This document shows, in pieces, positions 18,057-29,859 of a DNA stretch of 43,346 bases. Positions within the stretch are counted from its first letter, which is position 1, and each line of letters begins with the position of its first letter. The stretch is from Burkholderiales bacterium. Lineage in GTDB: Bacteria > Patescibacteriota > Minisyncoccia > Phycocordibacterales > UBA9973. Location of the stretch: positions 1 through 43,346 of the forward strand of contig JAMPXW010000002.1 of the NCBI GenBank assembly GCA_023701005.1, in the 5' to 3' direction. The notes under the pieces are model-generated. The model was not told the origin of the DNA. It saw only the letters and a list, made by a program, of their open reading frames with translations, and did no database searches. A program made the translations under genes and the position numbers.

Positions 18057-18142
18057 GGTCACAAATAATTTTTTGCTAAAAATTTTCGCGACCCGCTCCT
18101 CGCGCCGACACGCTGCGGACTCACAAAACTTTCAGTTTTGTG
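18057..18142 (-). other. structured tRNA-trailer element (two hairpins flanking a GC-rich core)
   Basis: Minus strand: cacaaaact-gaa-agttttgtg, GC-rich linker, then ggtcgcga-aaatttttagcaaaaaattat-ttgtgacc. Confidence 0.55.
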
Positions 18143-18224
18143 CCCAGGGAGAGAATCGAACTCTCATGATGTTGCCATCAATGGATTTTGAGTCCATCGC
18201 GTCTACCAATTCCGCCACCTGGGC
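18141..18224 (-). tRNA. tRNA-Leu(CAA)
   Basis: Acceptor GCCCAGG/CCTGGGC, anticodon arm ATGGA-CTCAAAA-TCCAT, long variable arm. Confidence 0.95.
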
Positions 18225-18319: not shown

Positions 18320-19327
18320 ATGTCTAATTTATATTCTAATTCAATTTTTTGGATTGATACAGATAAAATCAAACCAAATCCATATCAGCCAAGAAGAGAT
18401 TTTGATGAAACACATCTACAGAATTTAGCTGATTCTATAAAACAATACGGAGTACTCCAACCTCTCACTGTGTCTAGGGTAGAAATAGAAAAAGAAGATG
18501 GAGGGCTTTCTACTGAATATGAATTGATAGCAGGAGAGCGTAGATTGCGCGCAGCCATACTAGCTAGAGTATCTCAAGTGCCAGTGATCATTCGTGAAGG
18601 GGATTCTTCAATGATGAAACTTGAATTAGCTATTATTGAAAATTTACAAAGAGAAGATTTGAATGTTGTAGACAGAGCTCGTGCTTTCGCTAGACTTGCT
18701 ACAGAATTTAATTTTAAACATGCAGAAATAGCAAAGAAAATGGGTAGAAGTAGGGAGTATGTTTCAAACACATTACGTATTTTGTCTCTACCAGAAGAAA
18801 TATTACAAGGATTGTCTGAAGGTAAAATATCAGAAGGGCACACAAGACCACTCTTAATGTTGGTAGATCATCCAGAACAACAAAATGTTTTATTTAAAGA
18901 AATAGTTTATAAGAAAATAACAGTACGAGAGGCTGAAAGTTTGGCAAGAAAGATCGCGACTGATCGTGTGCGAAAAAAGGAATATGCTCCAGACCCAGAG
19001 ATAATGGAACTTGAAGGAGAATTTCAAGATAAGTTAGGCACTCGTGTACATATAGATAGGAGTGATTTGGGTGGTCAAATAAAGATAGATTTTTTCTCGG
19101 TAGAAGATTTACGTACCATTTTAGATTCTATAAACAAGAGTGCCGTAGATAAGAAGCCGGGTGAAATGTTGGATAATTATATTGCAAAAAATGCTATCAC
19201 GGAGAGTGAAAATGTTGTAGCAATAGATGACAGATCAAAAGATGAAATAAAAGAATCAGCCTCGACTGACGCGAGTCTAGGCGGGGACGACTCTAGCCTT
19301 TACGATATTTCTAATTTTAGTGTTTAA
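18320..19327 (+). CDS. parB: chromosome partitioning protein ParB/Spo0J
   Basis: NPYQPR, LIAGERRLRA, IENLQREDL, HTH. Confidence 0.95.
   Translation: MSNLYSNSIFWIDTDKIKPNPYQPRRDFDETHLQNLADSIKQYGVLQPLTVSRVEIEKEDGGLSTEYELIAGERRLRAAILARVSQVPVIIREGDSSMMKLELAIIENLQREDLNVVDRARAFARLATEFNFKHAEIAKKMGRSREYVSNTLRILSLPEEILQGLSEGKISEGHTRPLLMLVDHPEQQNVLFKEIVYKKITVREAESLARKIATDRVRKKEYAPDPEIMELEGEFQDKLGTRVHIDRSDLGGQIKIDFFSVEDLRTILDSINKSAVDKKPGEMLDNYIAKNAITESENVVAIDDRSKDEIKESASTDASLGGDDSSLYDISNFSV
19256..19285. repeat. in-frame palindromic element, family A
   Basis: tcagcctcgact-gacgcg-agtctaggcggg (30 nt), encodes SASTDASLGG. Confidence 0.75.
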
Positions 19328-20796
19328 GAACGTCCAAAAGATTTGAGCTTAGAAATCAAACTATTTTTTTCTAAATAAGAACGAATGTTCTTTTTTGCCA
19401 TGTTTGTCTTTACATGTTCTAACCATTTTGAAGATGGATGAGAGTCTTTTTTGGTAACTATTTCTACGATATCTCCATTTTTTAGAGTTGAAAGTATTGG
19501 AGCTATTTTATTGTTTACTTTTACTCCAGATATGTGATTACCAAGGTCTGAGTGTATAGAATAAGCGAAATCAATAGGAGAAGAACCTTCTGGTAAATCT
19601 ACAACATCTCCTTTTGGTGTAAAAATGAATATTCGATCATTGAAAAAATCAGTTTTTAGATGTTCAAGATATTTTTTAGGATCATCTAATTCATAATTAA
19701 AATTTTTTAGTTCTTCTATCCATTTAAATTTTTCACTTTCACTTTGACTGTTTTTCTTTCCTGTGCCTTCTTTGTAAGCGAAATGAGCAGCGATACCATA
19801 AGCTGCTTCATTATGCATTTCTTGAGTTCTTATTTGTATTTCAGCTGTTCCTCCTAGTCCTGTAAATATTGTAGTATGTATGGAACGATATCCGTTTGGC
19901 TTAGGTACAGCGATATAATCTTTAATTCTTCCCGGCAAAGGTCTCCAGATAGAATGAATGATTCCTAATACTCTATAACATTCTTCTATGTTTTCTACTA
20001 TCACTCTGAGAGCAACTATATCATCTATCTTTTCTAGATCCATGTCATGCCTTAAGAGTTTTTTCCATAAACTGTATTTATGTTTTGTTCTATAATTTAT
20101 TTCAACAAATTTAACTTTATTTTTCTTTAATTCTTTTATTAATTCTTCATGAACTTCTTTCAAGTATTCTTGATACATATCTTTACTGTCTTTCAACATA
20201 TCTTCTACTTCTTTATATTCCTTGGGATATGCAAAAGGGAAGGCAGCATCTTCTATTTCTCCTTTTAATTTACCCATACCGAGTCTGTTTGCTAGAGGTG
20301 CATACACTTCTATAGATTCCATTGCTATTCTTTTTCTTTTTTCCTCTTTTAGAGATTGAAGAGTTCTCAAATTATGTAATCTATCAGCAAATTTGATGAT
20401 GACAACTCTTAAATCGTTCGTCATAGCAACAAAGAATTTTCTTAAACTCTCAACATGTCTTTCATGACCCCTATATTTTAGGGTTCCCAATTTGGTGACA
20501 CCATTTACGAGAAATACAATATCATCACCAAATTCTTTGCGCATTTCTTCTTCAGTTATTTGAGTATCTTCTAAAACATCATGCAAAAGACCAGCGATTA
20601 TCGTTGGTGTATCCATACCTAATTTAGCTAAGATTTTTGCTGTTTCTAGTACGTGAGTAAAATAAGGACTTCCATCCATCCTTTTTTGATCTTTATGAGC
20701 ATTCTCTGCGAATTTATACGCTTTGTCTAAAAGCTCTTCCTCTTTCTTAGATACTTTACCAGTTATAAGATCGATTATTTCTTTTAGATTTGACAT
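19324..20796 (-). CDS. RelA/SpoT homolog (HD + synthetase + TGS), C-terminally short
   Basis: LHDVLED, KFADRLHN, KDYIAVPKPNGYRSIHT, EIQIRT, FTPKG..DFAY.IH. Confidence 0.95.
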   Translation of the reverse strand: MSNLKEIIDLITGKVSKKEEELLDKAYKFAENAHKDQKRMDGSPYFTHVLETAKILAKLGMDTPTIIAGLLHDVLEDTQITEEEMRKEFGDDIVFLVNGVTKLGTLKYRGHERHVESLRKFFVAMTNDLRVVIIKFADRLHNLRTLQSLKEEKRKRIAMESIEVYAPLANRLGMGKLKGEIEDAAFPFAYPKEYKEVEDMLKDSKDMYQEYLKEVHEELIKELKKNKVKFVEINYRTKHKYSLWKKLLRHDMDLEKIDDIVALRVIVENIEECYRVLGIIHSIWRPLPGRIKDYIAVPKPNGYRSIHTTIFTGLGGTAEIQIRTQEMHNEAAYGIAAHFAYKEGTGKKNSQSESEKFKWIEELKNFNYELDDPKKYLEHLKTDFFNDRIFIFTPKGDVVDLPEGSSPIDFAYSIHSDLGNHISGVKVNNKIAPILSTLKNGDIVEIVTKKDSHPSSKWLEHVKTNMAKKNIRSYLEKNSLISKLKSFGRS

Positions 20797-20844
20797 TTGG
20801 GAATTATAACATTCCTTTATTTTTTGGTCAATTTTAAATAAAAA

Positions 20845-23106
20845 TTAAGATTTTAGTATTTTGTGAGGGTTATGGTTTGGGCAAGATTTATTACTACATC
20901 TTTCAGGTATTGTTTTTGTGCCTTCCATCATTAAAGATCCGCATTCTTTACATATTTTACCTGTTGGTTTTGCTTTTATTGCAAATTTACAATCTGGATA
21001 ATTTGAACAAGAATAAAATATTCCAAATCGGCCGCGTCTTTCGCTGATGTCTCCTTTCTTACAAGTAGGGCAGATGACTCCTGTCCTTTTTCTTTTTTCT
21101 TCGGCTTCGTCTTTCTTTATAAATTTACATTTTGGATATCTAGAACAAGAAATAAATGTTCCTGTGCCATCTCTTCTTTCTTTTATTATTAGTTTACCTC
21201 CACCTTGTTTGCCTTTCTTTTCTCCACAATCGGGGCACATCTCTCCAGTTTCTTTTGGACCTTCCAGTTGTGTTCCATCGAGTCTTAAGGCGCCATCACA
21301 ATCTGGATAATCTGAACAAGAATAGAATTTACCACCGCGAGAAAGCTTGATGATCATTTTCTTTCCACATTTTGGACATTTTATATTTTCTGGAGCTTCA
21401 CCTAGGTTTGTAGCTTTCTCTAATTTTTCTTTTATTTTAATATCTTTTAGAAATGGAGTATAAAAATCTTTTAAAGTTTTTTCGTATTCTCTTTCACCTC
21501 TAGATATCTCGTCTAATTCATCTTCCATTTCTGCAGTAAATGTATCTGAAATATAATTTGCAAAATTATTTTCTAAAAAGTCAGATACGACTTCTCCGAC
21601 GTCAGTAGGGAAAAGAGTTTTATTTTCTTTTCGGACATATTCTCTATCTTCCAGTGTCTTCATTATAGAAGCATAAGTAGAAGGTCTACCTATGTCTCTT
21701 TGTTCTAATTCTTTGATGAGCCCTGCTTCGCTGTATCTGTTTGGGGGTTCTGTAAATTTTTCTTCTTTTACCAAATTTAACAAATTTAATTTTTCTCCTA
21801 TTTTTACTTCTCCTAATTCCAAATCATCACTTCCACTTTGTGTGTCTGCCTTTAGCCAACCCAAGAACAAGACCCTTGATCCTGTGGCAGAAAAATCAGG
21901 AAATTCAAAATCTAATTTTGGAGCTTCTTTGATGTTTGCTGTTATTTTTGTTTTTAACAATTTAGCATCAGACATTTGAGAAGATATAGTTCTTTCCCAT
22001 ATCAATCTGTAAAGCTTTTGTTGTTCTTCTGTTCCAGCACTCATATTTTCTATGTGAGTAGGACGAATAGCTTCATGAGCTTCTTGAGCATTTTTTGATT
22101 TAGTTTTATAAACTCTTGCTTGGGCATATTCTTTGCCGTATTTTTTCTCCACAAGTGAGATTATTTGTACTTGGGCTACAGATGAAAGATTTGTACTATC
22201 TGTTCTCATGTATGTAATATGTCCAGCTTCATAAAGTTTTTGGGCTATTTGCATTGTCCTAGAAGGAGAATATCCAAGCCTAGAGCTGGCTGTCTGTTGT
22301 AATGTGGAAGTAGTGAAAGGTGCACGAGGAGATCTTTTTTGTTCTGATTCTTTTACATCTTTTACAAACCAAGTTCCTTTTTCCCCTTCGTCAAAAATAT
22401 TTTCAACCAATTTTTCATCTCTTGGTTCTTCAGTACAATTCAAGGTTAGTTTATTCCCGCCTCGCGTCGACGAGTCGCCACGAGTCGAGGCGGGCTTCTT
22501 TTCAGTTTCAAATAAACCAAATATTTTCCAATATTTTTCTGGTACGAATGCACGAATTTCTCTTTCACGTTCCATTATAATACGAAGAGCAGGAGATTGG
22601 ACTCTTCCTGCAGATAAGCCATAACGTACTTTCTTCCAAATGATTCCTGACAAATCATAACCCACGAGTCTATCGAGGACTCTCCTAGCTTCTTGTGCTT
22701 TTCTAAGATTGGTATCTATATCTCTAGGATTTTTCAAAGCTTCTTTTATTGCTTCTTCTGTGATTTCATGAAAAGTGACACGCCTTGTTGGTGCTTTTAT
22801 TTTTTTGTCTTTTTTCAATAATTCTTGTATATGCCAAGCGATAGCTTCTCCTTCACGGTCAGGGTCTGTCGCTAAAAGTATCTCAGAAGCTTTCTCTCCC
22901 AATGATTGAAGTTCATGTACGACTTTTTCTTTACCTTTTGATATTTCATAATGAGGTACAAAACCAGCTTCTATGTCGATAGCTATTTTGTTTGATTTAG
23001 GCAAATCACGTATATGTCCAATAGAAGCACGCACTGTGTATGCGCCTTCTAAATACTTTTCTATTGTCTTTGCTTTTGATGGTGACTCGACAATTAATAA
23101 TTTCAT
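20845..23106 (-). CDS. topA: DNA topoisomerase I
   Basis: IVESPSKAKTI, ATDPDREGE, SAGRVQS, ITYMRTD, C-terminal Zn ribbons. Confidence 0.97.
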   Translation of the reverse strand: MKLLIVESPSKAKTIEKYLEGAYTVRASIGHIRDLPKSNKIAIDIEAGFVPHYEISKGKEKVVHELQSLGEKASEILLATDPDREGEAIAWHIQELLKKDKKIKAPTRRVTFHEITEEAIKEALKNPRDIDTNLRKAQEARRVLDRLVGYDLSGIIWKKVRYGLSAGRVQSPALRIIMEREREIRAFVPEKYWKIFGLFETEKKPASTRGDSSTRGGNKLTLNCTEEPRDEKLVENIFDEGEKGTWFVKDVKESEQKRSPRAPFTTSTLQQTASSRLGYSPSRTMQIAQKLYEAGHITYMRTDSTNLSSVAQVQIISLVEKKYGKEYAQARVYKTKSKNAQEAHEAIRPTHIENMSAGTEEQQKLYRLIWERTISSQMSDAKLLKTKITANIKEAPKLDFEFPDFSATGSRVLFLGWLKADTQSGSDDLELGEVKIGEKLNLLNLVKEEKFTEPPNRYSEAGLIKELEQRDIGRPSTYASIMKTLEDREYVRKENKTLFPTDVGEVVSDFLENNFANYISDTFTAEMEDELDEISRGEREYEKTLKDFYTPFLKDIKIKEKLEKATNLGEAPENIKCPKCGKKMIIKLSRGGKFYSCSDYPDCDGALRLDGTQLEGPKETGEMCPDCGEKKGKQGGGKLIIKERRDGTGTFISCSRYPKCKFIKKDEAEEKRKRTGVICPTCKKGDISERRGRFGIFYSCSNYPDCKFAIKAKPTGKICKECGSLMMEGTKTIPERCSNKSCPNHNPHKILKS
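22456..22494. repeat. in-frame palindromic element, family A
   Basis: cccgcctcg...cgaggcggg perfect 9-bp terminal IR, 39 nt, encodes PASTRGDSSTRGG. Confidence 0.85.
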
Positions 23107-23172
23107 ACTTGCTAAGTATTACACGAAAATCATTTTTTTGGCAAACTTATCTTAATATAAACAAAAATTAAA

Positions 23173-24042
23173 TTAATTTAAATAAAGTTTTATCTCACCC
23201 ATTTCTTCTTTTATTATTTCTTTTATTTCCATTATTGAAAGTATCGCATTTGCATTAGGAATAGGTATTTTCATTGCTCTTATTAAATCATCTCTGGGGA
23301 TAGGTTCACGAAGTAATTCAATGACCTTTTTCTCTTCTGGTGATAGATCTAAAAATAGACTTTTTTGTTTTTCTTTATCATTTTTTCTTTCGAAACCCAA
23401 TGCTTCTAAAACATCATCAGCGCATGTTATGGGCGTAGCACCTTGTCTTATTAATCTATTAGTTCCATTTGAACTTGAAGAAAATATAGATCCAGGAATA
23501 GCGAGTACGTCTCTGTTGTATTCTGTTGCTAGCCTAGCTGTGATGAGTGTGCCTGATCTTTCTTCTGCTTCTATGATGAGAACTGCTTTTGATATTCCAG
23601 CCATCAATCTATTTCTCATAGGGAAGCTCCATTGTGTAGCTTTAAAGTTTGGTTCAAATTCAGAAATTAGACATCCACCACTTTCTACTACTTCTCTCAT
23701 TAGCCGCACATTTGTTTTGGGATATATTGCTTCATCACCCAAGCCTGAGCCAGGGAAAACTATTGTTTTGAGACCGACTTGCATAGCTTTCTTGTGAGAT
23801 ATCGTGTCTATGCCAATAGCAAAACCAGAAACAATGACTATGGGGTATCCTTGTAAGCCAGCTATTATCTTTTCGCAAGATTCTTTTCCATATGAAGTAA
23901 ATTTGCGAGATCCTACGATAGATAAAAAAATCAAATTTTCATCTTTTGGTAATTCTCCGATAATCCATAAATCTTCAGGAGGTTGAGGAATCTCTAGTAA
24001 AGATTTTGGAAATTCTTTTTTGGATAATTTTTTTATTTTCAT
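23173..24042 (-). CDS. dprA: DNA-processing protein DprA
   Basis: IVGSR, VSGFAIGID, FPMRNR, SGTLITA; dprA-topA synteny. Confidence 0.95.
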   Translation of the reverse strand: MKIKKLSKKEFPKSLLEIPQPPEDLWIIGELPKDENLIFLSIVGSRKFTSYGKESCEKIIAGLQGYPIVIVSGFAIGIDTISHKKAMQVGLKTIVFPGSGLGDEAIYPKTNVRLMREVVESGGCLISEFEPNFKATQWSFPMRNRLMAGISKAVLIIEAEERSGTLITARLATEYNRDVLAIPGSIFSSSSNGTNRLIRQGATPITCADDVLEALGFERKNDKEKQKSLFLDLSPEEKKVIELLREPIPRDDLIRAMKIPIPNANAILSIMEIKEIIKEEMGEIKLYLN

Positions 24043-24047
24043 GAATT

Positions 24048-24149
24048 TTAAAAATTAATAAAATCAAAAGATTTCTGAGCCTTCGCCCTCGGAGTCCATG
24101 AGGACAGGGAACCCACGACTCTTAAAATCTTTTATTTTTTAATTTTTAA
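24048..24149. repeat. MITE/REP-like intergenic element
   Basis: Imperfect AT-rich IRs (ttaaaaattaataaaatcaaaagattt / aaatcttttattttttaatttttaa) around a GC-rich core. Confidence 0.55.
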
Positions 24150-24189
24150 CTACTTTGTAATTATAACAGCATTGATATATAATAGATAT

Positions 24190-25503
24190 ATGTTAGATAT
24201 TAAATTTATACGTGAAAATAAAGACATTGTGCAAGTTGGTGCAAAGAAAAAGCTTATTGATGTAGACATAGAAAAGCTTATTTCTCTCGACGATGAACGT
24301 CTAAAACAATTGAAAGAAGTTGAAGATTTGAGAAGCGAGATCAACAAAGTTTCAAATGATATTGGTATTGAAAAAGATCAGGCAAGGAGAATGCAATTGA
24401 TCGAAGAAATGCGTCTTGTAAAAGAAGATATCAAGCAAAAAGAAGAAAAATTAAAATCAATTACAGAAGAGTGGCAGAAGATAATGCTAAAGATACCAAA
24501 TATTCCATCTGTCGATACTCCAGAAGGCCCAGATGATTCGGGGAATGTAGTTTTGAGAAGTTGGGGAGAAAAACCACAATTTTCTTTCGCACCTAAAGAA
24601 CATTTTGAATTAGGAAAATCGTTGGGGATCATAGACACAGAAACAGCAGCAGATGTTTCTGGTGCAAGATTTTCTTATTTAAAGGGAGATTTAGTTTTTA
24701 TGCAATTTGGGTTAATCCAGATGTGTTTAGATATTTTAAATAATGAAGAAATATTAAAAAATATAGCAGAAGAATCAAACATTTCTGTTAATCCAACTAA
24801 ATTTTTACCTATAATACCACCAGTATTTATAAAACCAATCGTTCAGACTAAAATGGCTCGATATATGACACCTGAAGAGCATTATATGTTTCCGAATGAT
24901 AATCTGATGCTCATAGGAAGCGCAGAACACACATTAGGTTCAATGCATATGGGTAAAATTTTTGAAGAAAAAGATTTACCTATTAGATATGCTGGATATT
25001 CTACAGCTTTCAGGAGAGAAGCAGGTGCTGCAGGGAAAGACACAAATGGAATTTTACGTCAACATCAATTTGATAAATTAGAAATGGAAGTTTTTTCTTT
25101 GCCAGAAAATGGAATTCAAGAACAAAATTTTCTTGTTGCAATTCAAGAATATATATTAAAAAGTTTGAAATTATCTTTCCAAACAGTCGCTATTTGTACT
25201 GGAGACATGGGTTTTCCAGACACTAGACAAATAGATATTGAAATTTGGATGCCAGGTCAAAATAAATATAGAGAAACTCATAGCGCAGATTACACTGGGG
25301 GGTTTCAGTCACGTCGTTTGAATACTAGAGTCAGAAGAAGTGATGGAAAGATAGAACCAGTGCATATGAATGATGCCACTGTCGTCGCTATAGGACGAAT
25401 GCTTATAGCTATCTTGGAAAACTACCAACAAGAAGATGGCTCTATTAAGATACCAGAAGTATTAAGAAAATATATGGGGAATAAAGAATTTATAACAAAG
25501 TAG
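24190..25503 (+). CDS. serS: serine--tRNA ligase
   Basis: MLDIKFIREN start at ATG 24190, FRREAG, RQHQFDKLE, AILENYQ. Confidence 0.97.
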   Translation: MLDIKFIRENKDIVQVGAKKKLIDVDIEKLISLDDERLKQLKEVEDLRSEINKVSNDIGIEKDQARRMQLIEEMRLVKEDIKQKEEKLKSITEEWQKIMLKIPNIPSVDTPEGPDDSGNVVLRSWGEKPQFSFAPKEHFELGKSLGIIDTETAADVSGARFSYLKGDLVFMQFGLIQMCLDILNNEEILKNIAEESNISVNPTKFLPIIPPVFIKPIVQTKMARYMTPEEHYMFPNDNLMLIGSAEHTLGSMHMGKIFEEKDLPIRYAGYSTAFRREAGAAGKDTNGILRQHQFDKLEMEVFSLPENGIQEQNFLVAIQEYILKSLKLSFQTVAICTGDMGFPDTRQIDIEIWMPGQNKYRETHSADYTGGFQSRRLNTRVRRSDGKIEPVHMNDATVVAIGRMLIAILENYQQEDGSIKIPEVLRKYMGNKEFITK

Positions 25504-25528
25504 TTTTAGTTATTAGAGAAATATAAAA

Positions 25529-26398
25529 ATGCGAAGAAAAATTATTTTAAATTCTCCTCGAATTCAAGAATTAAAAAGAAGAAAACGACAAACTGTTTTA
25601 AAAAAATTATCTTGGGTAGTTTTTTTCTTTTTGTTGGTGTTGGTAGGTTTATCTTTTTTATCTAGATGGAGCAAATTAAATATAGATAAAATAGAAGTCA
25701 CAGGAAATAAAATAGTAGAAACAAAAATAATAGAAGATTTTATCCAACAAGAATTGGCTGGTAATTATTTTTGGATTTTTCCAAAGACGAATTTTATTCT
25801 TTTTCCTCAAAATAGAATAGAGAATGAGTTGAAAAATAAATTTAAAAGGATTGAAACGATTTCAGTTAATGATAAAAATATCAAAACTTTAGAAGTCTCT
25901 ATTTCTGAGAGAAATGCTTTATATACTTGGTGTGGAGTAGAGCCATTGATAGTAGAAGATTCTGATCAGAAATGTTATTTCTTAGATAAAGAAGGATATC
26001 TTTTTGATGAGGCGCCTTATTTTTCAGGTGATGTTTATTTTAGATTTTATGGAGTTAATGACATTGATACAGAAAATCCTTTAGGAAATTATTTCTTTAA
26101 GCAACATTTTAATAGATTGATTCATTTAAAAGATTTGTTAGAAAAAACTGAATTGAGAGCGATAGCTTTTTATGTAATGGAAAATGGAGATATAAAGATT
26201 TTACTAAAAAAACAAGGAGAAATGACAGAAAATCCAAATGTGATTCTCAAAACAGAATCAGATTTCGATAAAATAATAGAAAACTTACAATCGGTTTTGA
26301 ATACTGAACCATTACAAAGTGATTTTAAAAATAAATATAGCTCACTTATGTATATTGACCTACGCTTTGGCAATAAGGTTTACTATAAGTTTAAATAA
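25529..26398 (+). CDS. FtsQ/DivIB-like cell division protein
   Basis: Basic N-terminus, one TM, POTRA-like IEVTGN, C-terminal YIDLRFGNKVY. Confidence 0.7.
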   Translation: MRRKIILNSPRIQELKRRKRQTVLKKLSWVVFFFLLVLVGLSFLSRWSKLNIDKIEVTGNKIVETKIIEDFIQQELAGNYFWIFPKTNFILFPQNRIENELKNKFKRIETISVNDKNIKTLEVSISERNALYTWCGVEPLIVEDSDQKCYFLDKEGYLFDEAPYFSGDVYFRFYGVNDIDTENPLGNYFFKQHFNRLIHLKDLLEKTELRAIAFYVMENGDIKILLKKQGEMTENPNVILKTESDFDKIIENLQSVLNTEPLQSDFKNKYSSLMYIDLRFGNKVYYKFK

Positions 26399-26401
26399 AG
26401 G

Positions 26402-26553
26402 TAATATACATAAAAGTATATTTTATAAAACACACATATTTGCAAGCTTGCAAATTGCTATGCTCGTCGTTCAAGAAAAAAATAGTCGGAATACCTCCTT
26501 ATTTTTCTAAACTCCTGTGCAATGTTTTCTAAAACATACTTTTATATATATTA
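26402..26553. repeat. MITE/REP-like intergenic element with ~31-bp terminal IRs
   Basis: taatatacataaaagtatattttataaaaca / tgttttctaaaacatacttttatatatatta (3 mismatches); internal palindrome tttgcaagcttgcaaa. Confidence 0.65.
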
Positions 26554-27590
26554 TGAATTTTTGGAAAAAATTGAATAAACCATTTTTTTGCTTAGCGCCT
26601 ATGTCTGATGTCACAGATATAGCTTTTCGTCGTATGCTTGCTAAATATGGCAAGAACAGAGAAAACAAAGATAGTGTTGTTTTCTGGACAGAATTCGTTG
26701 CGGCTGATGGATTGGCAAATAAACTTGCTAAAAAGAAATTGTCTCATATTTTAAAATATTCTGAAGCCGAGAGGCCCATTTTGGCTCAAGTATTTGGTGC
26801 GAATGAAGAGAATATGGAGACAGCTTGTAGATATATAGCGAGCCTTGGTTTCGATGGAATAGATATAAATATGGGTTGTCCAGATAAATCTGTCATAGCG
26901 CAAGGAGCAGGTTCAGCTTTAATAAAGACACCAGAACTCGCAAAGAAAATAATAAATGCAGCAAAAAGAGGTATAAAATCCGCAGGGGTTGATATTCCTT
27001 TGTCTGTAAAAACTAGAATTGGTTTCAACAAAGAAGACATAGACAATTGGATACCTATTTTGCTTAAAGAAAATATTTCAGCTTTGACCGTACATTTGCG
27101 TACCACTAAAGAATTGTCTTTAGTTCCTGCACATTGGATTTTGATGAAAAAAGTTATTGAGTTAAGAGATAAAATAAATCCTGATACTTTAATAATTGGA
27201 AATGGGGATGTTGTAGATTTAAATGATGCAGAAAATAAAATAAAAGAATTTGGTTGTGATGGTGTGATGATAGGTAGGGGGGTTTTTGGTAATCCATGGT
27301 TTTTTAAAAGGTGGGCCCTTAAATCTTCAGAAAGGGCCGACCTTGAAGTTTCTCTTGAAGAAAGACTCTTGGCATTAATAGAACATACTCAAATTTTTGA
27401 TAAAGAACTTTTAAAACCTAAGCATAAAAATTTTGCTGTCATGAAAAAACATTTTAAAGCTTATGTAAAAGATCCTGCCTCGACGCAAGGCGGGTTTCCG
27501 GGTGCAAAAGAACTCCGTATGAAATTAATGGAGACAAATAACGCCAAAGAAGTAGAAAAAATAATTAAAGATTTTTTAAAGACAAAATAA
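26553..27590 (+). CDS. tRNA-dihydrouridine synthase (DusB-like)
   Basis: LAPM, DINMGCP, SVKTRIG, NGD, GVMIGRG; ATG at 26553 preferred. Confidence 0.95.
   Translation: MNFWKKLNKPFFCLAPMSDVTDIAFRRMLAKYGKNRENKDSVVFWTEFVAADGLANKLAKKKLSHILKYSEAERPILAQVFGANEENMETACRYIASLGFDGIDINMGCPDKSVIAQGAGSALIKTPELAKKIINAAKRGIKSAGVDIPLSVKTRIGFNKEDIDNWIPILLKENISALTVHLRTTKELSLVPAHWILMKKVIELRDKINPDTLIIGNGDVVDLNDAENKIKEFGCDGVMIGRGVFGNPWFFKRWALKSSERADLEVSLEERLLALIEHTQIFDKELLKPKHKNFAVMKKHFKAYVKDPASTQGGFPGAKELRMKLMETNNAKEVEKIIKDFLKTK
27308..27344. repeat. in-frame palindromic element (inverted pair of AAGG-N5-CCTT 13-mers)
   Basis: aaggtgggccctt (27308-27320) and aagggccgacctt (27332-27344), 1 mismatch as an IR. Confidence 0.65.
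27474..27494. repeat. in-frame palindromic element, family A
   Basis: cctgcctcgacgcaaggcggg (21 nt), encodes PASTQGG. Confidence 0.8.
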
Positions 27591-27617
27591 AAAACTCGGA
27601 GATAACTCCGAGTTTTT
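27590..27617. terminator. bidirectional intrinsic terminator
   Basis: aaaaactcggag-ataa-ctccgagttttt. Confidence 0.85.
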
Positions 27618-27627
27618 GTTAAAAACA

Positions 27628-28191
27628 CTATTTTAAACCATTATCTGCAAAAAATTTCTTTTTCATAGAAGAAGCAATTTCTAGAATTAAATCATTTTTA
27701 GAATTATTTTCTTTCATGTACTGATCAGAAAATATTTCCAAAGAAATAAAAAATTCACCCGGACTGATTGATTTATTTTTGTAATAAATTTCCTTTGCAG
27801 CAAGAAACAAAGCAGAAATTGTTTCATTAATGGGGTAGCCATGTCCCGAAGCTACTGCAGAAGAAAATTTTACGGTCTTTTTTTTGTACTTTCTTTCTAC
27901 AGAGAAAAAACCAGCACCATGGAAATAAAAATGTTCCCGATCTTCTTTTAGTATCATGTTTTTTGAAAAAAGTAGTTCCGAAATTTGCATAATAACTTTC
28001 AAATGATTATTGCGTGTTTCAAAAAAATTTATTTCTCCTATTTTTTCTATTTTTATAGATTCTTTTTTGGGATTTATGTAACCCAAAAAGATGCCTTCTT
28101 TACCACATCCTTTGTCTATCAGGATAAGTTGAAGGTATTTAAAAAAAAGATTTAAATAGGGAAATTCTCTAGAGAATAAAATATTTTCCAT
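27628..28191 (-). CDS. hypothetical protein
   Basis: ORF 27628..28203; ATG at 28191 preceded by GGAGG; own TTGACT promoter-like element and terminator. Confidence 0.6.
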   Translation of the reverse strand: MENILFSREFPYLNLFFKYLQLILIDKGCGKEGIFLGYINPKKESIKIEKIGEINFFETRNNHLKVIMQISELLFSKNMILKEDREHFYFHGAGFFSVERKYKKKTVKFSSAVASGHGYPINETISALFLAAKEIYYKNKSISPGEFFISLEIFSDQYMKENNSKNDLILEIASSMKKKFFADNGLK

Positions 28192-28317
28192 CTGTTCCTC
28201 CAAATGATATAAGTTGTTTTTTGTTTGTTATGACGAAGAATTATTTCCAATACAATACTACTTAAACAGCTAAAAGTCAAGTATTTTTAATCAATAAAAT
28301 TATAGTATAATCAATAC

Positions 28318-29433
28318 ATGCATGATTTGGCATTATATAGAAAATACAGGCCTCAGAGCTTTAAAGAAGTCGTAGGGCAAGATCATATTGTAAAAGTTTT
28401 AGAAAGCTCTGTAGAGACAAATAAAGTTTCTCATGCGTATCTTTTTGTTGGTTCACGTGGTATCGGTAAGACATCCGTCGCAAGAATTTTTGCTAAAGAG
28501 ATAGGCGTATCAGTAAATGATTTATATGAAATAGATGCTGCTTCAAACAGAGGCATTGAAGACATTAGAGAGCTTCGTGATGGAGCTAGAGTTCTTCCGT
28601 TTGATTCTAAATATAAAGTTTACATAATAGACGAGGTGCACATGCTTTCCAAGGATGCATGGGGAGCGTTATTGAAAACTTTGGAAGAACCACCAAAACA
28701 TGTCATTTTTATTTTAGCTACGACAGAAGTTCATAAAGTTCCAGAGACTATCGTGTCTCGTTGCCAAGTTTTTACATTTAGAAAAGCTTCAGAATTAATT
28801 TCTAAAAAAATGATTTTAGAAATTTCAGAAAAAGAAGGTTTTGTTTTAGATTCTAGTGGTGCAGAATTGATAGCCATTTTAGGAGATGGATCTTTCCGTG
28901 ATGCGTTAGGCATACTTCAAAAAGTTTTAAATTTCTCTGTTGATGCTAAAGGTAAAAAAGTTAAAAAGATAAATAGGGAAGACATAGAAAAGATAACAGG
29001 AGCTCCAAAAACTATTCTAGTAAATGATTTCATCACATCTATAGCAAAGAAAGATTTAGAAAATGGAATTTTAACAATTAAAAAAGCTGCTTCAGAAAAT
29101 TTAGATATGAAACTTTATTTGAAACTTATAATAGAAAAATTTCGCATGGCTATAATATTGCGTTATGCACCTAAATTATTAAAAGACCTGTCTGCCGGCA
29201 GGGCAGGAATGGCAGGGGATTTAGGAGAAGAAGATTTAGAATTTTTGAAAAATTTAGTGAAAGAAGACCCCGAACAAAAGCCTTCGGCTTCGGACGGGGC
29301 AGGCAAGAAAGCTCATATGTTTACATCTTCTTCTTTGGGTGTGTTATTAGAGGCTTACAGCGACATAGATAAGGCTTTTATTAGTGAATTACCCCTAGAA
29401 CTCGCTTTAGTAAAAATCTTGTCAAAAGATTAA
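28318..29433 (+). CDS. dnaX: DNA polymerase III subunit gamma/tau
   Basis: LYRKYRP, GSRGIGKTS, EIDAAS, IDEVHML, LKTLEEPP, SRC. Confidence 0.96.
   Translation: MHDLALYRKYRPQSFKEVVGQDHIVKVLESSVETNKVSHAYLFVGSRGIGKTSVARIFAKEIGVSVNDLYEIDAASNRGIEDIRELRDGARVLPFDSKYKVYIIDEVHMLSKDAWGALLKTLEEPPKHVIFILATTEVHKVPETIVSRCQVFTFRKASELISKKMILEISEKEGFVLDSSGAELIAILGDGSFRDALGILQKVLNFSVDAKGKKVKKINREDIEKITGAPKTILVNDFITSIAKKDLENGILTIKKAASENLDMKLYLKLIIEKFRMAIILRYAPKLLKDLSAGRAGMAGDLGEEDLEFLKNLVKEDPEQKPSASDGAGKKAHMFTSSSLGVLLEAYSDIDKAFISELPLELALVKILSKD
29187..29207. repeat. in-frame palindromic element, family A variant
   Basis: cctgtctgccggcagggcagg (21 nt), encodes LSAGRAG. Confidence 0.8.
29268..29303. repeat. in-frame palindromic element, family A variant
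   Basis: ccccg-aacaa-aagcc-ttc-ggctt-cgga-cgggg-cagg, encodes PEQKPSASDGAG. Confidence 0.7.
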
Positions 29434-29479: not shown

Positions 29480-29662
29480 ATGATCTCACATAGTTCAAAA
29501 ATTAAAGAAAGAGCAGTAATGCTTAGGAAGAAAGGCAAAAGTTTTAGCCAGATTGCAGAGACTCTTAAAATAGGCAAAAGCACGGTTGGTTTTTGGTTTA
29601 AAAATGGTGTTGTTAAATCTAAAGCATTAAAAAAATCAACCAAAACAAAAAAGAGAAAATAA
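29480..29662 (+). CDS. small HTH protein (possibly a truncated remnant)
   Basis: LRKKGKSFSQIAETLKIGKSTVGFW helix-turn-helix with basic tail. Confidence 0.7.
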   Translation: MISHSSKIKERAVMLRKKGKSFSQIAETLKIGKSTVGFWFKNGVVKSKALKKSTKTKKRK

Positions 29663-29742: not shown

Positions 29743-29813
29743 TGGGAGATCGTCTAACGGTAGGACAGAGGCCTTTGAAGCCTTTAATCTAGGTTCGATT
29801 CCTAGTCTCCCAG
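29743..29813 (+). tRNA. tRNA-Gln(TTG)
   Basis: Acceptor TGGGAGA/TCTCCCA, anticodon arm GAGGC-CTTTGAA-GCCTT, GGTTCGATTCC. Confidence 0.95.
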
Positions 29814-29859
29814 CAGGGTTAAGTTAACTTAAAAAATTAAATATTGTGGATAACTTTTC

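What the first reader, a model, noticed from the sequence alone, without database searches (positions are those of the whole stretch)
19256..29303. Family of tiny GC-rich palindromes inserted in frame in housekeeping genes (candidate coding-sequence mobile element system)
Seen: five GC-rich hairpins inside AT-rich ORFs, at parB 19256-19285 (30 nt), topA 22456-22494 (39 nt), dus 27474-27494 (21 nt), dnaX 29187-29207 (21 nt) and dnaX 29268-29303 (about 36 nt). In coding orientation all end in GGCRGG, most begin CCYGYC-like, and three share GCCTCGAC, giving related peptides in unrelated proteins (SASTDASLGG, PASTRGDSSTRGG, PASTQGG). As delimited, all lengths are multiples of 3 and no ORF is broken. 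Known analogues: Rickettsia palindromic elements in ORFs (much longer) and mostly extragenic REP sequences spread by RAYT HUH transposases. Inference: a very short non-autonomous element inserts widely, survives in genes when frame-preserving, and adds peptide loops to core proteins. No mobilising enzyme is visible in this window.
Basis: partly seen in the sequence, partly recalled or inferred. Interest (0 to 1): 0.85.

Follow-up and report, generated by a model that had tools for sequence, protein, structure and literature searches.

The report
Tiny in-frame hairpin repeats in genes
Five short GC-rich hairpin sequences sitting in frame inside essential genes of an ultra-small bacterium are recent insertions of tiny repeated DNA elements that are spread through this whole bacterial phylum and add small floppy loops to core proteins.

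Summary
Contigs of about 90-94% identical strains in other metagenomes lack the parB, topA and second dnaX inserts at the same boundaries.

They belong to at least three repeat families, not one:
- B: CCYGCCTCG...CAAGGCGGG (parB, topA, dus)
- A: CCTGCCTRCCGGYAGGCAGG (first dnaX insert)
- an unclassified third type (second dnaX insert)

Family A occurs in 135 of 401 sampled genomes of the phylum. Family B recurs letter for letter across many Patescibacteria classes. Copies in long ORFs are multiples of three in 56 of 58 cases, against 14 of 26 outside them, and they use only the benign reading frames. That shows a selective filter.

The mobilising enzyme is unresolved. The genome has three RAYT-like transposases, each flanked by other hairpins, and 0 of 53 RAYT loci carry A or B. 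Small GIY-YIG nuclease genes at tRNA genes carry A or B just upstream in three relatives or viral contigs, but this genome has none.

Intragenic REPs and Rickettsia RPEs are published precedents, so this is a new variant of a known kind. Earlier work in this scan found the same phenomenon on other DNA, including another piece of this genome.

The parts
19256..19285 (+). 30-nt family B (subfamily B2) element in parB, read as SASTDASLGG in the C-terminal linker.
   Evidence: Sequence. It is absent in 17 of 17 ParB orthologs. A contig of run X4 (about 90% identical) leaves out exactly 30 nt at 19256 (table 4). At least 6 copies of CCAGCCTCGACT-N6-GAGTCTAGGCGGG occur in this genome.
22456..22494 (-). 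39-nt family B (long form B3) element in topA, read as PASTRGDSSTRGG.
   Evidence: Sequence. The codon alignment shows a clean 13-codon indel absent in 17 of 17 relatives. A contig of run X3 (about 94% identical) joins 22455 to 22496 with one letter between, a net loss of 39 nt (table 5c). This is the best hairpin of the five, z = -2.0.
27474..27494 (+). 21-nt family B (short form) element in dus, read as PASTQGG.
   Evidence: Sequence. It is absent in 17 of 17 Dus orthologs. The identical 21-mer lies in other genes of G007, G059, G071 and G073. In the AlphaFold model it falls in coil 305-317, where the 10-residue-block pLDDT is 77-79 against 92 and 96 in the adjacent blocks.
29187..29207 (+). 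21-nt family A-like element in dnaX, read as LSAGRAG.
   Evidence: Sequence. It is absent in 15 of 15 DnaX orthologs. Residues 291-297 coincide with model segment 292-300, which has pLDDT below 50. A contig of run X4 covering 28305-29268 has 21 gap letters; that this is the missing element is my inference (table 8).
29268..29307 (+). About 39-nt GC-rich insert in dnaX (PEQKPSASDGAGK), with an imperfect hairpin CCCCG...CGGGG around AAGCC...GGCTT. Its family is not assigned; it somewhat resembles the CCCCGAAGC family.
   Evidence: Sequence. There is a 13-residue gap in 15 of 15 orthologs. Run X4 replaces 29269-29346 by 39 letters, a net loss of 39 (table 5c). Model segment 320-330 has pLDDT below 50. 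Fold.
18320..19327 (+). parB, host gene.
   Evidence: ORF. Pfam ParB_N, HTH_ParB and ParB_C.
20845..23106 (-). topA, host gene.
   Evidence: ORF. Pfam Toprim, Topoisom_bac and Zn_ribbon_Top1.
26553..27590 (+). dus, host gene. The listed ORF starts at GTG 26517, but orthologs align from Met 26553.
   Evidence: Pfam Dus.
28318..29433 (+). dnaX-type clamp-loader ATPase gene, host of two inserts.
   Evidence: ORF. Pfam DNA_pol3_delta2 and AAA.
29743..29814 (+). Intact tRNA-Gln. Its 5' part is the same sequence that, as a duplicated fragment split by a family A or B palindrome, precedes small GIY-YIG genes in relatives G080 and G093. No such cassette is present here.
   Evidence: Rfam tRNA match. 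Sequence. Comparison with L467 and L468. No GIY-YIG remnant was found.

Best explanation
The five inserts are copies of miniature repeated DNA hairpins, 16-40 nt long and GC-rich in a 32% GC genome. They belong to at least three sequence families that are dispersed through Patescibacteria and a few other low-GC lineages.

**Shown**
- New copies appear at unrelated sites as exact insertions without target-site duplication.
- Different species carry them at different sites.
- Closely related strains differ by presence or absence at exact boundaries.
- Copies inside genes are almost always 3n long and lie in the reading frames that give small, polar, Cys-poor peptides (PAS..GG, LP..AG).

**Inferred**
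- The element moves as a single-stranded DNA hairpin. One strand keeps a G-T pair where the other has a C-A mismatch. There is no TSD, and no DDE transposase in the genome.
- It lands more or less anywhere in a genome that is about 92% coding.
- Selection then removes every copy that breaks a frame, encodes a harmful peptide or hits a structured part of the protein. What remains looks like neat loop insertions in housekeeping proteins.
- The inserts are translated. If they were not, there would be no constraint on frame.

**Not resolved: the enzyme**
- About 0.35: small Ssn-like GIY-YIG single-strand nucleases lodged at tRNA genes.
- About 0.15: the abundant RAYT-like Y1 transposases acting in trans.
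- The rest: another agent or none.

This genome has no small GIY-YIG gene. Its copies are therefore either orphans of a lost partner, moved by its three RAYTs, or imported with alleles by recombination.

The confidence given is for the reading as dispersed, selection-filtered insertion elements, not for any one enzyme.
For: **Clean lineage-specific indels.** All five sites show them. In 15 window genes with at least 3 orthologs, the only insertions of 3 or more codons unique to this genome (4 of 4) are these elements.

**Genome-wide against relative G006.** 712 kb of G006 was fetched. 34 of 91 de-duplicated insertions of 4 or more codons found only in this genome have GC of at least 0.55. Random same-length pieces of the same ORFs give a mean of 4.5 and a maximum of 11 in 200 draws. 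The reciprocal figure for G006-only insertions is 30 of 105.

**Strain-level presence/absence at exact boundaries**.

**Recurrence**
- Family B pattern: 56 hits against 1 control hit in 101 genomes of the genus, present in 25 of 101. The nearest relatives G006 and G010 have 0.
- Family A: 266 sites against 1 control site, present in 61 of 101. In the phylum sample it is in 135 of 401 genomes and 117 of 319 genera.
The same 24-mer accounts for 25 of 103 low-GC matches.

**Selective filter.** 56 of 58 copies in long ORFs are 3n, against 14 of 26 in short ORFs. Frames in long ORFs: forward-0 37, reverse-1 12, forward-2 6, forward-1 2, reverse-0 1. Family A's 18-mer is read as LPAQAG in 10 of its 11 copies that lie in ORFs of 90 aa or more.

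**No TSD** in the filled/empty comparisons.

**Other mobile-DNA enzymes in the genome.** No DDE_Tnp_1, TnpB or reverse transcriptase, and one tyrosine recombinase.

**Loops.** The only internal DnaX model segments with pLDDT below 50 are the two inserts.
Against: - **No enzyme is linked.** 0 of 53 RAYT loci have A or B as their flanking hairpin. 0 of 103 low-GC family B copies in named genomes lie within 900 bp of a RAYT or small GIY-YIG homolog. This genome has no small GIY-YIG gene at all, yet it gained copies recently.
- **Weak hairpins.** Four of the five window copies fold barely better than shuffles of the same letters.
- **No transposition intermediate or excision product was seen.** Only assembled contigs were available, not reads.
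- **Translation is inferred** from the frame filter, not observed. No RNA or protein data were available.
- **Identity across classes** could also reflect a conserved function rather than selfish spread.
- **Low pLDDT at the inserts is partly built in**, because the alignment has gaps there.
- **Gene calls are crude.** They are my own longest-ORF calls. The pairwise indel list needed removal of antisense shadow ORFs.
Confidence: 0.8

Rival explanations
1. They are ordinary REP/REPIN elements mobilised by the genome's own RAYT (REP-associated Y1/HUH tyrosine transposases). They sit in genes only because there is almost no intergenic space.
For: - The genome has three RAYT-like genes: C1:5003-5692, C1:67505-68173 and C2:237947-238675. 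They match Pfam Y1_Tnp, and NCBIfam REP_Tyr_transpos is their only hit, though below its cut-off.
- Each is flanked by its own 19-29-nt GC hairpins. One hairpin copy lies in frame in the end of the RAYT gene itself.
- RAYT homologs occur in 79 of 101 genomes of the genus, with up to 15 per genome.
- Hairpins of RAYT-linked types also appear among the in-gene insertions.
- 23 of 28 A/B sites lie in ORFs, where about 26 would be expected at 92% coding density, so there is no preference for genes.
Against: - 0 of 53 RAYT loci have family A or B as the flanking pair. Their cognate hairpins have another build: a 6-8-bp stem, a 5-nt loop, and often TA at both ends.
- Family A is present in 12 of 22 genomes without a RAYT hit, against 49 of 79 with one. 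G050 has 21 copies and no RAYT hit. Copy number against RAYT count gives rho = 0.02.
- No conserved GTAG-type tag is seen in the printed flanks.
Confidence: 0.15
2. They are the cognate hairpin repeats of small Ssn-like GIY-YIG single-strand nucleases that lodge in tRNA genes, in the manner of NTS/SRM repeats with SsnA. The nuclease either creates the nicks at which copies are laid down or uses the copies as its cutting sites. This genome has lost the nuclease.
For: - Small GIY-YIG ORFs of about 80-130 aa are common in the genus. There are 322 Pfam matches (uvrC included) in 98 of 101 genomes. 10 of the 30 best loci have a tRNA gene within a few hundred bases.
- In three independent places an A or B palindrome is cleanly inserted in a duplicated tRNA 5' fragment 17-28 bp upstream of such a gene, followed in two of them by the intact tRNA-Gln:
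  - G093: family B, 21 nt
  - G080: family A, 18 nt
  - viral contig L463: family A, 20 nt
- Family A copy number correlates weakly with the GIY-YIG count: rho = 0.28, p = 0.004, not corrected for relatedness.
- Published Ssn nucleases cut ssDNA next to hairpin repeats that flank their genes (PMC11893778, abstract and sections 6, 7 and 10 read).
Against: - This genome has only uvrC and no remnant of a small GIY-YIG gene, yet it gained copies after splitting from strains that are 90-94% identical.
- Only 2 of the 30 best GIY-YIG loci have an A-type palindrome within 400 bp. The other upstream hairpins are of unrelated sequence.
- 0 of 103 family B copies in named genomes lie within 900 bp of a GIY-YIG homolog, and the density of such genes in those loci is no higher than the genome average.
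- Ssn enzymes are nucleases. No copy-and-paste activity is known for them.
- Membership of these proteins in the Ssn clade (CDD cd10448) could not be tested. NCBIfam gave no hit.
Confidence: 0.3
3. They are not selfish at all. They are short motifs kept for a function of their own, such as a pause or structure signal in mRNA, a nuclease or uptake-related site in DNA, or a useful flexible linker in proteins. Their identity across lineages reflects that constraint.
For: - The same 18-24-mers are conserved letter for letter across classes of the phylum.
- Some insertions are shared at the same protein site by different species, so they persist:
  - G085 and G072, loci L112 and L120
  - G100 and G101, loci L110 and L134
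  - G010 and G033, topA zinc-ribbon site, loci L182 and L199
- Hosts are rich in DNA and RNA enzymes: RecA, RecJ, UvrC, TopA, DnaX, ParB, PNPase, RNase R, TruB, Dus and tRNA synthetases. The paper on intragenic REPs noted the same tendency (PMC3733652, passages read).
Against: - Presence is patchy even between the closest relatives. G006 and G010 have 0 family B copies.
- Sites differ from genome to genome in the same gene.
- Strains about 90-94% identical lack them.
- The window copies are decaying.
- The frame and length bias is what a purifying filter on random insertions predicts.
- In a genome made up largely of information-processing genes, enrichment in such genes was not tested against a background.
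Confidence: 0.1
4. The hairpins arise on the spot through replication errors (template switching or fold-back synthesis), or come in only with imported alleles by homologous recombination after DNA uptake. Nothing transposes within this genome.
For: - No linked enzyme was found.
- There is no TSD.
I did not test this.
- Import of ready-made alleles would explain how a genome without the nuclease gained copies.
Against: - Local copying errors cannot give the same 18-30-nt sequence at hundreds of unrelated sites in hundreds of genomes.
- Import of alleles only moves the question to the donor. I could not test it, because contigs of close strains were seen only as difference tables.
Confidence: 0.1

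Closest known systems
Intragenic REPs: GTAG- and CGTC-tagged palindromic repeats (Di Nocera, De Gregorio and Rocco 2013, PMC3733652; passages read)
   Same: - Both are 20-40-nt stem-loops in many copies.
- Several families occur per genome.
- G-T pairs occur in stems.
- Some copies lie wholly inside ORFs of known proteins, often replication and repair genes (uvrABC, recB, dnaE, truB).
- One superfamily is tied to RAYTs and the other has no dedicated transposase.
   Different: - Here no GTAG or CGTC end tag is conserved.
- The elements are GC islands in a 32% GC genome.
- 23 of 28 copies are inside genes, rather than being a minority there.
- They reach down to 16-18 nt.
- The same sequences recur across a whole phylum.
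- That paper did not cover Patescibacteria. Its supplementary tables of intragenic copies were not open to me.
Rickettsia palindromic elements (RPE; Ogata et al. 2000, recalled from my own knowledge; summarised in PMC3733652)
   Same: Both are selfish palindromic repeats inserted in frame in essential genes of a small, AT-rich genome. Both are thought to be translated into extra surface segments.
   Different: Classical RPEs are about 100-150 nt (recalled), 3-8 times longer than these. They are confined to Rickettsia and relatives. The short RPE-4 and RPE-6 are CGTC-tagged REPs according to the paper. Sequence relatedness was not tested here.
Ssn GIY-YIG single-strand nucleases with NTS/SRM hairpin repeats (Chenal et al. 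2025, PMC11893778; abstract and sections 6, 7 and 10 read)
   Same: In both, a hairpin repeat of 20-30 nt is scattered in tens to hundreds of copies, some flanking a small GIY-YIG nuclease gene. Both occur in naturally competent bacteria.
   Different: - NTS repeats surround genes rather than sitting in frame within them.
- In the paper, 71% of regions surrounding genes for SsnA homologs hold a repeat. Here only a few GIY-YIG genes carry A or B, and this genome has no such gene.
- Family membership of the Patescibacteria nucleases is untested.
GC clusters and double-hairpin elements of fungal mitochondrial DNA, and the byp elements of Magnusiomyces (recalled from my own knowledge; not read here)
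   Same: Both are short GC-rich hairpin elements spreading in a very AT-rich, compact genome. Some copies lie inside coding sequence.
   Different: Those are organelle elements. Byps are bypassed by the ribosome and need not keep the frame. Here the frame and length filter shows read-through translation. There is no sequence relation.

Membership tests
REP/REPIN with RAYT (REPtron) | Short imperfect palindromes (about 20-40 nt) present in many dispersed copies. | tested here: met
   - 23 pattern hits in this genome against 0.75 in shuffles.
- 28 A/B sites in this genome.
- 56 family B and 266 family A sites in 101 genomes of the genus, against 1 control hit each.
REP/REPIN with RAYT (REPtron) | A cognate RAYT gene flanked by copies of the same palindrome. 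| tested here: not met
   0 of 53 RAYT loci carry A or B as the flanking pair: 30, 3 and 20. The three RAYTs of this genome are flanked by other hairpins.
REP/REPIN with RAYT (REPtron) | A conserved GTAG (or CGTC) tetranucleotide at one end of the stem-loop. | tested here: not met
   The flanks printed for 23 sites in this genome and for 30 family A loci show no conserved tetranucleotide. GACG/CGTC occurs inside some family B variants only. This was checked by eye, not with a formal motif test.
REP/REPIN with RAYT (REPtron) | Mainly extragenic location. | tested here: not met
   23 of 28 sites lie in ORFs of 200 aa or more. With about 92% of the genome in ORFs, this is close to random placement.
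Rickettsia palindromic elements | In-frame insertion in ORFs that stay intact, absent from orthologs. | tested here: met
Rickettsia palindromic elements | Element length of roughly 100-150 nt and sequence similarity to the RPE families. | tested here: not met
   Lengths here are 16-39 nt. Similarity to RPE consensus sequences was not tested, because none was at hand from a tool.
Ssn nuclease / SRM repeat system | Repeat copies flank the gene of a small single-domain GIY-YIG nuclease. | tested here: inconclusive
   - Three clean cases: L467, L468 and L463.
- Only 2 of the 30 best GIY-YIG loci have an A-type copy within 400 bp.
- 0 of 103 family B copies lie within 900 bp of such a gene.
- This genome has none.
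Ssn nuclease / SRM repeat system | The nuclease belongs to CDD family cd10448 and cuts single-stranded DNA next to the repeat. | not testable with these tools
   CDD is not on hand. NCBIfam gave no hit for two of the proteins. The cleavage assay is a bench experiment.
[quoted passage not shown] | Terminal inverted repeats with a target-site duplication, and a related DDE transposase somewhere in the genome. | tested here: not met
   There is no duplication at the filled sites compared with empty orthologous sites. No DDE_Tnp_1 match in the genome. Other DDE families were not searched.

The most novel reading that the evidence does not exclude
These are the smallest mobile DNAs yet seen (16-24 nt cores). 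They are kept letter for letter across an entire phylum and beyond, and they spread without a linked transposase. Spread would come either from an unlinked single-strand nuclease acting in trans or from capture of nuclease-resistant hairpin oligonucleotides taken up from the environment. They would be a main source of new loops in the essential proteins of ultra-small bacteria: about a third of species-specific in-frame insertions in the two genomes compared.
Probability: 0.3. Interest if true: 0.8.

Novelty: new variant of a known kind. Interest (0 to 1): 0.6.

Why it matters
**Protein evolution.** If the reading holds, a large share of the length differences between orthologous housekeeping proteins in Patescibacteria comes from a rain of tiny hairpin insertions filtered by selection, not from ordinary indel mutation. 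In the G000-G006 comparison, 34 of 91 and 30 of 105 species-specific insertions are GC islands. This matters for several reasons:
- It gives a natural, replicated experiment on which loops of RecA, TopA, DnaX, UvrC, tRNA synthetases and others tolerate insertions.
- It can mislead alignments, trees and structure predictions for this phylum.

**How very short palindromic repeats move.** This is an old open question. Here the families are short, conserved and numerous enough for direct biochemistry with two candidate enzyme families that sit in the same genomes.

**Practical use.** The elements are handy markers of very recent divergence between strains.

Tried and rejected
**Detection methods that did not work well**
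- GC-island scans with fixed windows or score segments missed most copies.
- A sliding-window fold scan gave 1466 windows against 309 in a shuffle and 476 regions. It was too permissive to define families, and I did not use it for counts.
I replaced it with a faster pairwise aligner.

**Expression and polymorphism within one population**
- No RNA holder was listed, and all four runs were kept as contigs only. Nothing can be said about expression, excision products or within-population polymorphism.
- Parts of the window without cover in X2-X4, the dus insert among them, are uninformative.

**Searches for a partner enzyme**
- A family A cluster in G067 (6 copies in 8 kb) turned out to be secA and mur-type genes, with no candidate enzyme.
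- The five sites of this genome that lie outside long ORFs (four intergenic, one in a 61-aa ORF) are 5.8-46 kb from the nearest tRNA gene.
- The spacer between dnaX and tRNA-Gln holds no GIY-YIG remnant.

**Viral contigs**
- Family B gave 0 matches.
- The family A 20-mer gave 35 stretches, but 28 of the 35 loci have 54-68% GC. There it may be another repeat or partly chance, so I draw no vector conclusion.

**Orientation of family B.** The bias relative to replication could not be separated from gene orientation: 12 of 15 follow the GC skew and 13 of 15 follow the gene.

**Literature.** Seven full-text searches found no description of such elements in Patescibacteria. The 'RAYT' search returned only unrelated word matches, and 'palindromic repeat' returned CRISPR mentions.

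**Rejected readings**
- Convergent selection for PAS-rich linkers. The identity is at the DNA level, synonymous positions included.
- Assembly artefact. The same copies are in an independent metagenome, X2.

Full report
**What is there.** The window is the first 43 kb of contig C2 of a 692-kb, 5-contig genome with 32-33% GC, reported as 99.4% complete. Earlier notes of this scan, and the named records that share its elements, place it in Patescibacteria.

They lie in parB, topA, dus and a dnaX-type clamp-loader gene (Pfam). All are in frame and none breaks its ORF. The loose pattern CCYGYC-N(2-34)-GRCRGG is found 23 times in the genome, against 0.75 +/- 0.70 in 20 triplet-shuffled genomes. Exact GC-rich hairpins with 6-bp stems number 107, against 12-16 in three shuffles, though many of those are terminator-like intergenic hairpins.

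As isolated DNA hairpins the five copies are weak. Their z-scores against shuffles of their own letters run from -0.7 to -2.0. They are best seen as partly decayed copies.

**They are insertions, and recent ones.** I fetched orthologs from up to 30 relatives (18 of the same genus) and aligned them.
- The 39 nt in topA are a clean 13-codon indel absent from 17 of 17 relatives.
- The 21 nt in dus are absent from 17 of 17.
- The two dnaX inserts are absent from 15 of 15.
- The parB insert, in a variable linker, is absent from 17 of 17.

Other species carry other small GC palindromes at other topA sites, for example CTGCCTACCGGACAGGCAGGC (LPTGQAG) in G015 and CTGCCTGCGCAGGCAGGA (LPAQAG) in G010.

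In 15 window genes with at least three orthologs in syntenic DNA of seven relatives, this genome has four unique insertions of 3 or more codons, and all four are these elements.

Contigs from other metagenomes give a finer time scale:
- A strain about 90% identical (run X4) leaves out exactly 30 nt at 19256.
- A strain about 94% identical (X3) joins 22455 to 22496 with one letter between, so the topA element is gone.
- X4 replaces 29269-29346 with 39 letters, so the second dnaX insert is gone. It also has 21 gap letters in the piece that spans the first dnaX insert; that this is the missing element is my inference.
- A roughly 96-99% identical strain (X2) has the parB insert and both dnaX inserts.

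Since all outgroups lack them, these are gains in this lineage. X1 may be the source of the window and is not independent.

**Families.** The five copies are not one family.
- **Family B** has conserved ends, CCYGCCTCG at the 5' end and (GAGT)CAAGGCGGG at the 3' end, with a variable middle. It covers the dus 21-mer, the topA 39-mer and the parB 30-mer. The parB copy belongs to a 30-nt subfamily, CCAGCCTCGACT-N6-GAGTCTAGGCGGG, with at least six copies here, read as PASTxxSLGG.
- **Family A** is CCTGCCT-N(2-7)-AGGCAGG. Its main forms are the perfect 18-mer CCTGCCTGCGCAGGCAGG and the 20-21-mers CCTGCCTRCCGGYAGGCAGG. The first dnaX insert is a variant.
- The second dnaX insert fits neither family.

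This genome has 28 A/B sites. 23 lie in ORFs of 200 aa or more, which is about what 92% coding density predicts. The hosts are RecA, RecJ, PNPase, UvrC, TruB, PheT, NusB, RNase R, GluRS, another class I tRNA synthetase, TsaD, G6PD, GAPDH, SecD, MreC and others.

**Spread.**
- In 101 genomes of the genus, the family B pattern has 56 hits against 1 for the reversed-pattern control. It occurs in 25 genomes, and the two nearest relatives have none.
- Family A has 266 sites against 1 control site. It occurs in 61 genomes, with up to 21 per genome.
- In an even sample of the phylum, family A is in 135 of 401 genomes and 117 of 319 genera, with up to 49 copies.
103 of the 122 matches are in low-GC loci. 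The titles I saw (80 of 120) name many Patescibacteria classes, and also WOR-3, Bacteroidota, Omnitrophota and MAGs labelled Gammaproteobacteria. The 19 matches in high-GC loci have long, non-palindromic middles and look like chance.
- One 24-mer, CCTGCCTCGCCGAGTCAAGGCGGG, makes up 25 of the 103.

The genus counts include genome G072, which is flagged unpublished (2 B sites, 6 A sites, 2 RAYT hits and 7 GIY-YIG hits; loci L120, L139 and L193). No conclusion depends on it.

**A selective filter.** Among the 103 low-GC family B copies, 56 of the 58 in open frames of 200 aa or more have a length divisible by three. In frames under 100 aa the figure is 14 of 26 (Fisher p = 5e-6). In long frames the copies use forward frame 0 (PAS..QGG, 37), reverse frame 1 (RLDSARQ, 12) and forward frame 2 (LPR..KAG, 6). 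The Cys- or Arg-rich frames are nearly empty. Family A's palindromic 18-mer is read as LPAQAG in 10 of the 11 copies that lie in ORFs of 90 aa or more. In this genome, 13 of 15 family B copies in long ORFs have the same orientation as the gene, 11 of them in frame 0.

AlphaFold models built on the ortholog alignments place the inserts in loops.
- In DnaX (mean pLDDT 84.7) the only internal segments with pLDDT below 50 are 292-300 and 320-330, which are the two inserts.
- In Dus (mean pLDDT 91.2) the insert lies in a 13-residue coil where block pLDDT is 77-79.

The dip is partly built in, because the alignment is gapped there.

**Weight in protein evolution.** I compared this genome with 712 kb of relative G006 (TopA 86% identical). 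After removing antisense shadow ORFs, 34 of 91 insertions of 4 or more codons found only in this genome have GC of at least 0.55. Random pieces of the same ORFs give a mean of 4.5 and a maximum of 11. For G006-only insertions the figure is 30 of 105.

**How they move.** The filled/empty comparisons show no target-site duplication. The genome has no DDE_Tnp_1, TnpB or reverse-transcriptase match, and one tyrosine recombinase. In family B the 5' arm CCTGCC faces GGCGGG, which gives a G-T pair on one strand and a C-A mismatch on the other, whichever way the copy lies in its gene. I read this as a sign that one particular DNA strand is the active hairpin, as in single-strand transposition, but the pattern I searched with fixed that T.

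I tested two enzyme families.

*RAYT-like Y1 transposases*
- The genome has three, all outside the window. Each is flanked by its own hairpin: AGGGCGGTCCTTT..AAAGGACCGCCCT, CCCGAGGATAACCCTCGGG and TCCCGGACACCAGGTGTCCGGGA.
- Homologs are in 79 of 101 genomes of the genus, with up to 15 per genome. Most of the 53 loci I read have a cognate hairpin pair that changes with the RAYT clade.
- None has A or B as that pair.
- Family A is as common in genomes without a RAYT hit (12 of 22) as in those with one (49 of 79), and copy number does not correlate with RAYT count (rho = 0.02).

*Small GIY-YIG nucleases, a lead from earlier notes of this scan*
- Pfam GIY-YIG has 322 matches in 98 of 101 genomes, mostly 80-130-aa ORFs beside uvrC. 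10 of the 30 best loci have a tRNA gene within a few hundred bases.
- In G093, G080 and one viral contig, a family B or A palindrome is cleanly inserted in a duplicated tRNA 5' fragment 17-28 bp upstream of the nuclease ORF. In the two genomes the intact tRNA-Gln follows the gene.
- Family A copy number correlates weakly with GIY-YIG count: rho = 0.28, p = 0.004, uncorrected for relatedness.
- Against this, only 2 of the 30 best GIY-YIG loci have an A-type copy within 400 bp. 0 of 103 family B copies in named genomes lie within 900 bp of either enzyme. This genome has no small GIY-YIG gene or remnant.

The partner is therefore unresolved.

**What is known.** Di Nocera et al. 2013 (PMC3733652, abstract and passages read) describe REPs of 20-40 nt in two superfamilies, GTAG-tagged (tied to RAYTs) and CGTC-tagged (without a transposase). 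They report REPs located wholly inside genes in several species, often replication and repair genes, and note that the short Rickettsia RPE-4 and RPE-6 are of this kind. Chenal et al. 2025 (PMC11893778, abstract and sections 6, 7 and 10 read) show that Ssn GIY-YIG nucleases cut single-stranded DNA next to hairpin repeats that flank their genes. Seven full-text searches found nothing on such elements in Patescibacteria.

Earlier follow-ups of this scan reported the same phenomenon in a dozen other genomes and on another piece of this one. I used them as leads and re-tested the RAYT and GIY-YIG claims here.

**Verdict.** The finding is a new variant of a known kind (intragenic REP- or RPE-like repeats). 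It is remarkable for its small size, its conservation across the phylum, its share of protein insertions and the absence of a linked enzyme.

Noticed in passing
window 27313-27343: There is a further hairpin inside dus, GGCCCTT..AAGGGCCGACC. It resembles the GGTCGGCCCTTTTGAAAAGGGCCGACC hairpin at C1:6390 and lies in a loop where many orthologs carry their own insertions of different length. It may be a sixth element, of a family seen near a RAYT gene.
   Followed up: partly
G000 C1:5003-5692 (-), C1:67505-68173 (+), C2:237947-238675 (-): Three RAYT-like Y1 transposase genes are each flanked by their own GC hairpins. One hairpin copy lies in frame at the 3' end of its own RAYT gene. Homologs reach 15 copies per genome in relatives of only 0.6-0.8 Mb.
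   Followed up: partly
window 29480-29662 (+): A 60-aa ORF with a helix-turn-helix-like sequence sits alone between dnaX and tRNA-Gln. In relative G009 a small GIY-YIG gene lies directly after dnaX at this position.
   Followed up: no
window 18087-18118, beside the tRNA at 18141-18224 (-): A 32-nt tract of about 80% GC (CGCGACCCGCTCCTCGCGCCGACACGCTGCGG) lies just beyond the 3' end of a long-arm tRNA gene in the spacer before parB. It belongs to no family I defined.
   Followed up: no
L467 (G093:C32:2700-4300), L468 (G080:C9:32700-34300), L463 (a viral contig): Small GIY-YIG genes are preceded by a duplicated tRNA 5' fragment split by a family A or B palindrome. In the two genomes an intact tRNA-Gln follows the gene. 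The nuclease start codon lies inside the tRNA fragment.
   Followed up: partly
G000 C4:55706-55748, C4:9417-9457, C5:7445-7485: Perfect palindromes of 41-43 nt, built around CGAAGCCCAGCTTAGGGGA..TCCCCTAAGCTGGGCTTCG, lie inside ORFs. One is a 19-codon insertion relative to G006.
   Followed up: no
L010, L011, L019 (topA of G001, G007, G028), alignment columns 240-248: Three other species have different insertions at the very topA site where this genome has its 39-nt element. This suggests a tolerant loop or an insertion hot spot.
   Followed up: no
L432, L438, L452, L454, L455, L461 (viral contigs with 60-68% GC): The family A 20-mer and near variants occur in 2-7 copies per contig in GC-rich viral contigs. 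The same palindrome may therefore be a repeat in quite different hosts.
   Followed up: partly
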